64,000 nt of DNA from Haliotis cracherodii (taxonomy: Eukaryota), in assembly GCF_022045235.1 (NCBI RefSeq), contig NW_027266264.1:24738001-24802000 (forward strand), read 5' to 3'. Numbering within the stretch: position 1 is the first letter of the stretch; the number at the start of each line of letters is the position of its first letter. Both the position numbers and the translations under genes were made by a program. Below, piece after piece: positions 23,401 to 26,710 of this stretch. Under the pieces are notes generated by a model. That model searched no databases and was not told where the DNA came from. It saw only the letters and a list, made by a program, of their open reading frames with translations.

Positions 23401-26168
23401 GGACAGCCACAGAGAGAGAATAACATTGTATGACCAGGATGTCCAGGAGGAGAATCTGAAGACGAGACCAGAGAGAACACTGGGCGGTGGGAACAGTCAT
23501 GTCGAAAGTGAGCACAGTCACAGAGAGAGAAGAACATTGTATGACCAGGATGTCCAGAAGGAGAATCTGAAGACGAGACCAGAGAGAACACTGGGCGGTG
23601 GGAACAGTCATGTCGGAAGTGGGGACAGCCACAGAGAGAGAATAACATTGTATGACCAGGATGTCCAGGAGGAGAATCTGAAGACGAGACCAGAGAGAAC
23701 ACTGGGCGGTGGGAACAGTCATGTCGAAAGTGAGCACAGTCACAGAGAGAGAAGAACATTGTATGACCAGGATGTCCAGAAGGAGAATCTGAAGACGAGA
23801 CCAGAGAGAACACTGGGCGGTGGGAACAGTCATGTCGAAAGTGAGCACAGTCACAGAGAGAGAAGAACATTGTATGACCAGGATGTCCAGAAGGAGAATC
23901 TGAAGACGAGACCAGAGAGAACACTGGGCGGTGGGAACAGTCATGTCGGAAGTGGGGACAGCCACAGAGAGAGAATAACATTGTATGACCAGGATGTCCA
24001 GGAGGAGAATCTGAAGACGAGACCAGAGAGAACACTGGGCGGTAGGAACAGTCATGTCGAAAGTGAGCACAGTCACAGAGAGAGAAGAACATTGTATGAC
24101 CAGGATGTCCAGAAGGAGAATCTGAAGACGAGACCAGAGAGAACACTGGGCGGTGGGAACAGTCATGTCGAACGTGAGTATAGTCACAGAGAAAGAAGAA
24201 CATTGTATGACCAGGATGTCCAGAAGGAAAATCTGAAGACGAGACCAGAGAGAACACTGGGCGGTGGGAACAGTCATGTCGGAAGTGGGGACAGCCACAG
24301 AGAGAGAATAACATTGTATGACCAGGATGTCCAGGAGGAGAATCTGAAGACGAGACCAGAGAGAACACTGGGCGGTAGGAACAGTCATGTCGAAAGTGAG
24401 CACAGTCACAGAGAGAGAAGAACATTGTATGACCAGGATGTCCAGAAGGAGAATCTGAAGACGAGACCAGAGAGAACACTGGGCGGTGGGAACAGTCATG
24501 TCGGAAGTGGGGACAGCCACAGAGAGAGAATAACATTGTATGACCAGGATGTCCAGGAGGAGAATCTGAAGACGAGACCAGAGAGAACACTGGGCGGTGG
24601 GAACAGTCATGTCGAAAGTGAGCACAGTCACAGAGAGAGAAGAACATTGTATGACCAGGATGTCCAGAAGGAGAATCTGAAGACGAGACCAGAGAGAACA
24701 CTGGGCGGTGGGAACAGTCATGTCGGAAGTGGGGACAGCCACAGAGAGAGAATAACATTGTATGACCAGGATGTCCAGGAGGAGAATCTGAAGACGAGAC
24801 CAGAGAGAACACTGGGCGGTGGGAACAGTCATGTCGAAAGTGAGCACAGTCACAGAGAGAGAAGAACATTGTATGACCAGGATGTCCAGAAGGAGAATCT
24901 GAAGACGAGACCAGAGAGAACACTGGGCGGTGGGAACAGTCATGTCGGAAGTGGGGACAGCCACAGAGAGAGAATAACATTGTATGACCAGGATGTCCAG
25001 GAGGAGAATCTGAAGACGAGACCAGAGAGAACACTGGGCGGTGGGAACAGTCATGTCGAAAGTGAGCACAGTCACAGAGAGAGAAGAACATTGTATGACC
25101 AGGATGTCCAGAAGGAGAATCTGAAGACGAGACCAGAGAGAACACTGGGCGGTGGGAACAGTCATGTCGAAAGTGAGCACAGTCACAGAGAGAGAAGAAC
25201 ATTGTATGACCAGGATGTCCAGAAGGAGAATCTGAAGACGAGACCAGAGAGAACACTGGGCGGTGGGAACAGTCATGTCGGAAGTGGGGACAGCCACAGA
25301 GAGAGAATAACATTGTATGACCAGGATGTCCAGGAGGAGAATCTGAAGACGAGACCAGAGAGAACACTGGGCGGTAGGAACAGTCATGTCGAAAGTGAGC
25401 ACAGTCACAGAGAGAGAAGAACATTGTATGACCAGGATGTCCAGAAGGAGAATCTGAAGACGAGACCAGAGAGAACACTGGGCGGTGGGAACAGTCATGT
25501 CGAACGTGAGTATAGTCACAGAGAAAGAAGAACATTGTATGACCAGGATGTCCAGAAGGAAAATCTGAAGACGAGACCAGAGAGAACACTGGGCGGTGGG
25601 AACAGTCATGTCGGAAGTGGGGACAGCCACAGAGAGAGAATAACATTGTATGACCAGGATGTCCAGGAGGAGAATCTGAAGACGAGACCAGAGAGAACAC
25701 TGGGCAGTGGGAACAGTCATGTCGAAAGTGAGCACAGTCACAGAGAGAGAAGAACATTGTATGACCAGGATGTCCAGAAGGAGAATCTGAAGACGAGACC
25801 AGAGAGAACACTGGGCGGTGGGAACAGTCATGTCGAAAGTGGGGACAGCCACAGAGAGAGAACATTGTATGACCAGTGTGACGCCCAGGAGGAGGAACAT
25901 GATCTGAAGACGAGACCAGGGAGAACACGGAACAGTGAACTGAAGAGGGACAATAGGCAAGCTGGTAAGGCGTATTACGAGACTGAAATGGGTGGACATG
26001 ATGAACCAATAGCACTGCAACACCGCTGTGTTATCAGTGGCGAGGTCATACCAAAGATAAAAAACAAGGCACAACATAACGATAAGGATGGTGATGAGAA
26101 TGTGGTGAAACAAAAGAGACTTGCTCCTCAAAAACGTATTTATGAAGAGGAAGATGATGATGAAATTA

Positions 26169-26208
<40 letters not shown>

Positions 26209-26710
26209 GGAGGAGGAGGAGGACACATCAGAACAAGAAAATACTGGGAGACATGTTGGTGGTAGAATAGAAAACATGGAACAACCTAAAAGAGAACTTG
26301 CAACAACCTCAACTGAGAGTGCGACAGGTGCGATATTTTACACATTTATCAAACGTTTCTTTTAATTAGAAAGATAACGTGTCATTAAATGTTCATACAT
26401 AATATGTTAATACACATTTGTTTCAGTTTCTGCTCACATACCTCGACCATCATCCCCAGAGGATGAAATGAAGGAACAACTCTCCTGCCCGGTGTGTTTA
26501 GATCTGTTCACTGACCCGGTCATACTGCAGCCCTGTTGCCACTCTTTGTGCAGTGAGTGTGCGGAAACCATCCGATCCCCAAAAAGCTCCTTCAAATGTC
26601 CTATGTGTCTGGCTGTTGTCCAGAATGGCCCACTTCAGAGGAATTTTCACTTGGAAGGCACGGTGAGTATCTACAAACGACAGCGGAAGATAAGCAACAG
26701 TATGAACTAG
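20407..26710 (+). CDS. Gene B: macrodomain - about 31 x 37-aa tandem repeat - poly-D/E - TRIM-like RING-HC, 1680 aa, 3 coding exons (20407-20824, 21987-26327, 26427-26710)
   Basis: Same splice sites and phases as gene A (TCTG|GTAAGA at 20824; ATTCAG|GT at 21987; ACAG|GTGCGA at 26327; TTTCAG|TT at 26427). The 4.3-kb exon 2 is open (ORF 22022-26365). RING reads CPVCLDLFTDPVILQPCCHSLCSEC...CPMC. Confidence 0.85.
22499..25930 (+). repeat. Coding minisatellite, 111 bp (37 aa) x about 31, in gene B exon 2
   Basis: TTGTATGACCAG recurs every 111 bp from 22538 to 25865; unit HV(E/G)S(EH/GD)SHRER(R/I)TLYDQDVQ(K/E)[16 protein letters not shown]. Confidence 0.98.

What the first reader, a model, noticed from the sequence alone, without database searches (positions are those of the whole stretch)
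26161..26710. C-terminal domain swap at a (GAT)n(GAG)n tract: Deltex RING-DTC replaced by a captured TRIM-like RING exon
Seen: A, B and C are collinear up to ...GATGATGAGGAGGAGGAC (10850 / 26224 / 39789). After it A and B continue ACATCAGAA... to a 99-bp intron and a different RING (EQLSCPVCLDLFTDPVILQPCCHSLC...FKCP.C...LQRNFHLEGTV), while C continues GAAAGTGTG... to the Deltex RING. Known: E-x-L-x-CPVCL-x-x-F-x-DP-x-x-L-PC-x-H and the trailing N-F-x-L helix are typical of TRIM N-terminal RINGs. Inference: recombination in the acidic trinucleotide tract fused the macro half of a Deltex-like gene to a foreign RING, creating a new macro-RING ligase with a C-terminal RING and no B-box or coiled coil. 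This would be functionally analogous to WWE-RING RNF146.
Basis: partly seen in the sequence, partly recalled or inferred. Interest (0 to 1): 0.75.

Follow-up and report, generated by a model that had tools for sequence, protein, structure and literature searches.

The report
Abalone macrodomain–TRIM-RING chimeric gene
In abalones, copies of a macrodomain-Deltex ubiquitin-ligase gene have lost their own catalytic end and carry an unrelated TRIM-type RING exon instead; the hybrid is spliced in RNA-type contigs and likely tags ADP-ribose-marked proteins by different chemistry, or acts as a decoy.

Summary
Copies A and B, plus a third copy A0 just upstream of the window, share the macrodomain half of Deltex gene C up to the acidic tract. 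They then switch to a foreign ~5.5-kb segment holding a 99-bp intron and a C3HC4 RING exon. That RING is TRIM-type, not Deltex: it falls outside the Deltex group (100/99), grouping with its parent's RING is rejected (p=0.003), and its top relatives are TRIM9-like (48-56%). One RNA-type contig joins all three exons and reads through the internal GT donor. The junction or RING exon also occurs in three other coded organisms, and RefSeq models exist in two Haliotis species. Recombination within the tract is unproven: no donor gene was found, and 0 of 17 other RING loci have an upstream acidic tract. Function is untested. The macro fold is intact and a TRIM-style RING dimer is predicted, but the linchpin residue is Q/L/M and no purifying selection is visible. 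It is most likely an ADP-ribose-directed, dimer-dependent lysine ligase or a decoy of its parent. RNF146 is only a loose analogue.

The parts
8707..9124 (+). Copy A exon 1: macrodomain, first part (from the Deltex parent)
   Evidence: Pfam Macro; 95.7% identical to C exon 1; in spliced contig of X1
10426..10953 (+). Copy A exon 2: end of macrodomain, short linker, acidic tract, junction after 10850, then 103 nt of foreign sequence
   Evidence: contigs of X2, X3, X8, X4, X6 span the junction
11053..11336 (+). Copy A exon 3 coding part: TRIM-type C3HC4 RING with both flanking helices; the transcript runs on to at least 12114
10851..16376 (+). Foreign segment X in copy A (end of exon 2, 99-bp intron, RING exon, 3' UTR, dispersed repeats); it ends where the shared upstream spacer resumes
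   Evidence: unique part 10851-11540 matches only the three copies
20407..20824 (+). Copy B exon 1: macrodomain
21987..26327 (+). Copy B exon 2: end of macrodomain, 30.6 x 111-bp in-frame repeat (22484-25876), acidic tract (26142-26224), junction after 26224
26328..26426 (+). 99-bp GT-AG intron, identical in A0, A and B
   Evidence: the same intron of copy A is skipped in contigs of X6 and X7 and X1
26427..26710 (+). Copy B exon 3: TRIM-type RING; internal GT donor at 26663
26225..31868 (+). Foreign segment X in copy B
   Evidence: 98.2% identical to A over 5580 nt
1..4466 (+). Remainder of segment X of the third chimeric copy A0, whose gene lies just upstream of the window
11984..12166 (+). 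Possible alternative last exon (60 codons, inside a dispersed repeat) reached from the internal donor at 11289; the B equivalent starts at 27360
   Evidence: matches the tail of H. rufescens model P0009; repeat shown; read through unspliced in the X1 contig
36919..42353 (+). Copy C, the intact parent: macrodomain-RING-DTC Deltex (exons 36919-37336, 38687-40497, 41534-41751, 42275-42353)

Best explanation
This is a spliced chimeric abalone gene, in three tandem copies, that joins the macrodomain half of a Deltex ligase gene to a foreign TRIM-type RING exon and likely works as an ADP-ribose-directed lysine ubiquitin ligase. Shown: the architecture (macrodomain, low-confidence linker, C-terminal RING, no DTC, no B-box), the splicing, the TRIM-type nature of the RING, and its presence in several related organisms. 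Inferred origin: a duplication of the spacer plus the 5' half of gene C broke at the end of the acidic tract and was joined, probably without long homology, to a 5.5-kb piece carrying the RING exon of a TRIM-like gene that is no longer found. Unequal crossing-over then multiplied the unit. Inferred mechanism: the macrodomain binds ADP-ribosylated targets like those of the parent; several molecules gathered on a target would pair their RINGs through the retained N- and C-terminal helices, as TRIM RINGs do, and pass ubiquitin to lysines. Without DTC it could not make the parent's predicted ubiquitin-on-ADP-ribose linkage. Odds: chimeric origin about 0.93; retained ADP-ribose binding about 0.6; real ligase activity about 0.55; the whole chain about 0.4.
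For: Splicing: a 2015-nt contig of X1 covers 8700-9123, 10425-10950 and 11050-12114 on consecutive record positions; the 99-nt GT..AG skip is in 2 of 4 runs (X6, X7). RING origin: the 11 Deltex rows form one side of a branch at 100/99 without the 5 chimera rows (46 rows, 81 columns); chimera plus the 5 parent-type RINGs is rejected, p-AU 0.0027; pair scores are 188/187 to TRIM9-like P0031/L023 against 97 or less to all 11 Deltex rows; the best PDB hit is TRIM30, and TRIM RINGs are 12 of the first 15 rows. All 8 zinc ligands are kept. Macro fold: pLDDT about 90 over residues 10-190, best matches macroH2A1.1 and PARP14 macrodomains, E 1e-10; GD(V)T and LLGSG motifs kept. RING homodimer: score 0.70, best control 0.41, contacts agree 100%, pLDDT 85; the mark was reached by 21 of 30 solved pairs and 0 of 23 single chains (eukaryotes 17 of 29, animals 7 of 16). 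Like dimers are solved, so this pass may be from memory. DTC supplies the residues for ADP-ribose ubiquitylation (PMC7615817, passages); TRIM RINGs need the four-helix dimer (PMC11992055, passages).
Against: The linchpin position is Q in A/A0, L in B and M in the other species; TRIM6 and TRIM22, with Gln there, are inactive (PMC11992055, passages). No sign of purifying selection: RING exon A vs B 1 synonymous and 6 non-synonymous differences (pS 0.017, pN 0.027); exon 1 pN 0.047-0.056 against pS 0.021-0.032 among diverged copies; the intron is 100% identical (counts small). The Asn of PARP14's IVNS is a Val here, so binding may be changed or lost. There is no coiled coil to hold RINGs together. 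Chimera plus all Deltex rows as one side of a branch is not rejected (p 0.217), and chimera plus gastropod TRIM9-like is not shown (p 0.243; the free tree puts it beside P0086 at 83/85). The runs are only guessed to be RNA, and contigs give no expression level. No donor was found.
Confidence: 0.42

Rival explanations
1. Decoy or pseudoligase: the chimera keeps the parent's target-binding macrodomain but has a weak RING, so it competes with gene C and damps its ubiquitin signal.
For: Linchpin Q/L/M; inactive TRIMs with Gln at this site, and inactive TRIMs that repress active partners, are described (PMC11992055, passages); exon 1 is 95-96% identical to C, so targets should overlap.
Against: All zinc ligands and both dimer helices are kept and a dimer is predicted. 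The nearest TRIM9-like RINGs also have N or Q at this site. A decoy would not need a RING at all.
Confidence: 0.25
2. A young, transcribed but selectively neutral by-product of tandem-array turnover, with no function yet.
For: pN is at or above pS in the RING exon and exon 1; the linker varies wildly between copies; the RING region differs by only about 3% between organisms, so little time for decay has passed.
Against: The frame is open in 3 of 3 copies here, including B's 4.3-kb exon, and in the H. rufescens models. In one search the listed indels all lie after the stop (11343-11443), none in the RING coding part. No listed change hits a zinc ligand (the tables of differences were cut). Parent C also shows pN above pS, so the ratio does not single out the chimera.
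Confidence: 0.25
3. On origin only: the join arose by recombination between acidic trinucleotide tracts in gene C and in the donor.
For: Identity with C stops exactly at the end of the (GAT)n(GAG)n GAC tract in all three copies, and the tract varies in length between copies.
Against: No donor is available to test it; 0 of 17 other RING loci have six or more GAN codons in the 1.5 kb upstream, nor do L023, L024 and L025 in 8-10 kb. A break at a fragile repeat with non-homologous joining gives the same picture.
Confidence: 0.35
4. The RING is a fast-diverged Deltex RING, or the join is an assembly or annotation artefact.
For: Chimera plus all Deltex as one side of a branch is not rejected (p 0.217); A0 and A are 99% identical, so the copy number could be inflated.
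Against: Grouping with the parent's RINGs is rejected; pair scores are twice as high to TRIM RINGs; the post-RING NFxL...V-IY helix is shared with TRIM9-like and MuRF-type RINGs, not Deltex; the intron position differs from C; independent contigs from 4 coded organisms hold the junction or RING exon.
Confidence: 0.04

Closest known systems
Macrodomain-RING-DTC Deltex ligases of invertebrates (parent gene C; P0001, P0002, P0005, P0173-P0179; ESM Atlas clusters commonest in Mollusca and Nematoda)
   Same: Same 5' exons and macrodomain, 95-96% identical to C at DNA level; same tandem cluster.
   Different: Deltex RING and DTC are gone; a TRIM-type RING stands in their place.
TRIM9-like RING/B-box proteins of gastropods (L023, L024, H. 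rubra P0031) and vertebrate MuRF/TRIM54-type RINGs
   Same: RING with EQL before the first Cys, NFxL...V-IY helix after it, 48-56% identity to L023, predicted helix-bundle dimer.
   Different: RING is C-terminal; no B-box or coiled coil; no near-identical donor; exact subfamily unresolved.
RNF146 (RING + WWE) and CHFR (RING + PBZ), ADP-ribose-reading RING ligases
   Same: One chain carries an ADP-ribose reader domain and a RING, without DTC.
Human PARP9-DTX3L complex
   Same: Macrodomains coupled to a RING ligase, with a role in immunity (PMC10789625, PMC12687431, passages); parent C resembles a single-chain version.
   Different: Two proteins in humans, and DTX3L keeps DTC; the chimera does not.
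TRIMCyp and other exon-shuffled TRIM fusions (recalled, not from a call)
   Same: A new reader-plus-RING protein made by capture of foreign sequence in one lineage.

Membership tests
Deltex (DTX) ligases | DTC domain directly after the RING | tested here: not met
   No PF18102 in P0008, P0003 or P0009; present in P0001 at E 2e-60; no DTC match between A0 and C
Deltex (DTX) ligases | RING of Deltex descent | tested here: not met
   Outside the 100/99 Deltex group; grouping with parent-type RINGs rejected, p 0.0027; a place on the long stem to all Deltex is not rejected, p 0.217
Deltex (DTX) ligases | 5' half descended from a Deltex gene | tested here: met
   Exon 1 95.5-95.7% and start of exon 2 97.5% identical to C
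TRIM proteins | C3HC4 RING of TRIM type with flanking dimer helices | tested here: met
TRIM proteins | B-box and coiled coil after an N-terminal RING | tested here: not met
   Stop codon 33 codons after the last Cys; no B-box in Pfam; no B-box-like motif or TRIM match elsewhere in segment X
TRIM9-like gastropod subfamily (as donor) | RING groups with L023/P0031/P0083 | tested here: inconclusive
   Top pair scores, AU p 0.243, but not grouped in the free tree
Macrodomain ADP-ribose readers | Macrodomain fold | tested here: met
   Pfam Macro over cut-off; model pLDDT about 90, TM about 0.85 to macroH2A1.1
Macrodomain ADP-ribose readers | Binds ADP-ribose | not testable with these tools
   Adenine-site Asp26 and LLGSG loop kept, IVNS Asn replaced by Val; roles of these residues recalled
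Active RING E3 ligases | Eight zinc ligands | tested here: met
   C336, C339, C352, H354, C357, C360, C373, C376 invariant in the alignment
Active RING E3 ligases | Basic linchpin residue after the last CXXC | tested here: not met
   Q377 in A/A0, L in B, M in P0003 and runs X4, X6, X7, X19
Active RING E3 ligases | Ubiquitin transfer activity | not testable with these tools
   needs an assay
RNF146-type ligases | WWE domain with PAR-triggered allosteric activation | tested here: not met
   No WWE in Pfam scan; reader is a macrodomain

The most novel reading that the evidence does not exclude
A natural catalytic-module swap: abalones turned a macrodomain-Deltex ligase, which would put ubiquitin on ADP-ribose itself, into a macrodomain-TRIM-RING ligase that is switched on when ADP-ribosylated targets cluster its RINGs and that writes lysine ubiquitin chains. 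The parent and the chimeras would then read one mark and write two different outputs from one fast-evolving immune cluster.
Probability: 0.3. Interest if true: 0.72.

Novelty: new variant of a known kind. Interest (0 to 1): 0.5.

Why it matters
It is a young exon-shuffling event with the intact parent next door, and it isolates one variable: the same ADP-ribose reader with or without the Deltex RING-DTC module. That makes parent C against copy A a ready-made pair for asking what ubiquitin on ADP-ribose does compared with ubiquitin on lysine. The macrodomain plus TRIM-RING layout was not found outside Haliotis, nor in the listings of paper searches. RefSeq already holds the gene models, as uncharacterised proteins. 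Chimeric genes in tandem clusters are a known phenomenon, and function here is unproven, which caps the interest.

Tried and rejected
Donor hunt. DNA searches of G000 with the junction-to-RING piece gave only the three copies (3 of 3 candidates; 3 of 3; other hits are repeats from 11545 on). The 34-aa post-junction peptide gave the same three (4 candidates scored). The RING protein search gave 39 matches from 150 of 169 candidates scored, best foreign 56%. The 50%-cluster library had nothing between 91% and 53% among the best 150 of 3616 hits. Proteins of 70-224 aa were not searched in the 90%-cluster database. A hint of similarity between A's 3' UTR and L023 (2 of 500 shuffles; 1 of 300 genomic pieces) was dropped: it is AT-rich, unrelated L035 scores the same 98, and no frame resembles the L023 protein. 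Upstream non-coding similarity to L023-L025: none (89, 318, 191 of 500 shuffles). P0004 (H. rubra) first looked like a second fusion but has the Deltex RING with a truncated DTC. The full-length structure prediction with 8 rows failed (pLDDT 38) and was not used. No RNA holder is listed on record; the X1-X18 labels are guesses. The joint table was swamped by intron repeats (140 rows not shown), so a minor isoform at the internal donor is not excluded. Four of the 17 own-genome RING loci (L029, L031, L034, L036) were left out of the tree because the motif search did not catch them; only 18 of the library hits besides P0003 and P0009 went in. Three look-ups of earlier findings returned nothing. 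No supplements were read.

Full report
Observation. Copies A (exons 8707-9124, 10426-10953, 11053-11336; 409 aa) and B (20407-20824, 21987-26327, 26427-26710; 1680 aa) share their sequence with copy C up to GAGGAC at 10850 / 26224 / 39789. They then continue into 103 nt unrelated to C (score 19, reached by 362 of 1000 shuffles), a 99-bp intron and a RING exon. C (841 aa) runs on to a RING and a DTC domain. A third chimeric copy, A0, lies just upstream of the window with an intact frame. Copy A is identical to a RefSeq protein labelled Haliotis cracherodii (P0008), so the window is abalone DNA and the gene model already exists, named 'uncharacterized'.

Layout of the cluster. In 224 kb around the window the order is macro-Deltex D, A0, A, B, C, then further macro-Deltex genes. 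Each unit is a spacer shared with the D-A0 interval, the 5' half of C, and a foreign segment X of about 5.5 kb (10851-16376 in A). The X copies are 98-99% identical, while the spacers and first introns are about 80-93% identical, so unequal exchange has reshuffled the units. Downstream of the RING exon X holds dispersed repeats and no B-box remnant.

Is it transcribed? One 2015-nt contig of run X1 joins exon 1, exon 2 and exon 3 on consecutive positions and reads on through the internal GT donor to 12114. Contigs of X2, X3 and X8 span the junction. In the second laying (4 of the 23 listed runs), contigs of coded organisms B, C and D hold the RING exon at about 3% difference; X4 and X6 span the junction, and X6 and X7 skip the 99-nt intron. 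The RNA label of these runs is a guess by the tool, but precise GT-AG skips point to RNA. Contigs give no expression level. RefSeq models with the TRIM-type RING exist in H. rufescens (P0003, P0006, P0009). P0009 uses the internal donor and ends in a 60-aa tail from a repeat; this would remove part of the predicted dimer helix but adds no domain.

What is the RING? All eight zinc ligands are kept. Its best foreign match in the genome is L023, a RING/B-box gene (56%, E 6e-16) whose close H. rubra relative is annotated TRIM9-like. TRIM RINGs fill 12 of the first 15 PDB rows. In a tree of 46 RINGs and 81 columns, all 11 Deltex rows stand apart at 100/99 on a long branch, and the 5 chimera rows fall in an unresolved TRIM-type group. 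Forcing the chimera in with the parent-type RINGs is rejected (p-AU 0.0027). Forcing it beside all Deltex rows is not rejected (0.217), nor is forcing it with the gastropod TRIM9-like rows (0.243), so the short alignment cannot name the donor subfamily. Pair scores favour TRIM: 188 and 187 against 97 or less for Deltex. The V-S-I-Y after the internal GT matches V-x-I-Y of TRIM9-like RINGs, so that GT is old coding sequence rather than an old intron start.

Donor and mechanism of origin. No donor was found in the genome by DNA or protein or in the protein collections, within the limits listed under Tried and rejected. None of 17 other RING loci has an acidic tract upstream. The junction does sit exactly at the end of an unstable tract, which fits either recombination between two tracts or a break at a fragile repeat with non-homologous joining; I give the first about 0.35. 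Of 13 proteins found with the macrodomain profile, 10 carry DTC, one is the chimera, one is a truncated Deltex and one is PARP14. None of the five from H. asinina and H. rubra has the TRIM-type RING, which weakly places the fusion after those lineages split. A RING that is young as a fusion yet about 50% distant from any living relative is unexplained: the donor was lost or missed, or the RING evolved fast after capture.

How it likely works. The macrodomain folds completely (pLDDT about 90) and matches macroH2A1.1 and PARP14 macrodomains (best sequence hit PARP14 macro 3). The GD(V)T and LLGSG motifs are kept, while the NAAN/GGG signature of hydrolases (recalled) is absent, so a reader is likelier than an eraser; binding is untested. 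Deltex ligases use His and Glu of DTC to ubiquitylate ADP-ribose itself (PMC7615817, passages); without DTC the chimera could not do this. TRIM RINGs work as dimers through helices on both sides of the core (PMC11992055, passages). Both helices are kept, and a homodimer through them is predicted (0.70 against best control 0.41; mark reached by 21 of 30 solved pairs and 0 of 23 single chains; contacts agree 100%, pLDDT 85), though like dimers are solved and the pass may be from memory. I therefore infer a ligase whose RINGs pair when several molecules gather on ADP-ribosylated targets, and which transfers ubiquitin to lysines. Against this: the linchpin is Q, L or M, and two TRIMs with Gln there are inactive (same paper); pN is at or above pS in small counts. 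A decoy of C (0.25) and a neutral by-product (0.25) remain live.

Comparison and novelty. It fails membership of Deltex (no DTC) and of TRIM (no B-box or coiled coil). The parent layout macro-RING-DTC is itself present in mollusc and nematode clusters (feature scores under 0.9, a lead only). Paper searches for macrodomain with Deltex in molluscs, nematodes, invertebrates or Haliotis gave 0, 0, 3 and 4 papers; none of the listings, nor those, describes this fusion. I saw only listings for these, and passages of the four papers cited; most subscription papers are not searched.

Verdict. A real, spliced, lineage-restricted chimeric gene; a new variant of ADP-ribose-linked RING ligases with unproven function and unknown donor. 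Interest 0.5.

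Noticed in passing
window 36919-42353, 50185-62829 and flanking loci L004-L006, L012-L014: A tandem cluster of at least four macrodomain-RING-DTC Deltex genes, a single-chain counterpart of the human PARP9-DTX3L pair; relatives in four Haliotis species and Gigantopelta, and Atlas clusters in molluscs and nematodes. No paper on this layout was listed.
   Followed up: partly
window 22484-25876: 30.6 copies of a 111-bp (37-aa) unit inside exon 2 of copy B, in frame; C has about 2 units and A none.
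   Followed up: partly
window 13760-14604 (also in the other X copies): A repeat whose genomic matches (about 82%) often come in same-strand pairs 7.6-7.7 kb apart, as LTRs of a retrotransposon would; here it looks like a lone, decayed copy.
   Followed up: no
window 50185-62829 and G000:C1 24802391-24807411: The macro-Deltex gene starting at 50185 showed no RING match, and just past the window an inverted partial copy (macro exon and RING, minus strand, RING cut by a stop) mirrors the gene at 24817979.
   Followed up: no
L023 (G000:C1:75071627-75074656) and L024 (75129478-75131005): TRIM9-like genes with a RING followed by several B-box-like exons, separated by tandem single-exon genes with seven-helix-receptor-like sequence (label from recall); another Deltex gene lies about 250 kb further on.
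   Followed up: partly
window 8707-9124, 20407-20824, 36919-37336: Macrodomain exon 1 shows 15-18 non-synonymous against 2-3 synonymous differences between diverged copies: a possible sign of diversifying selection, too few to test.
   Followed up: partly
window 51336-52429, 54229-57247, 58941-59559, 8209-8515: Several minisatellite arrays (units of about 16, 59, 56 and 33 bp) in introns and spacers.
   Followed up: no
P0004 (H. rubra): A macro-Deltex model whose DTC breaks off early, which would be a second, independent loss of DTC or an assembly error.
   Followed up: no
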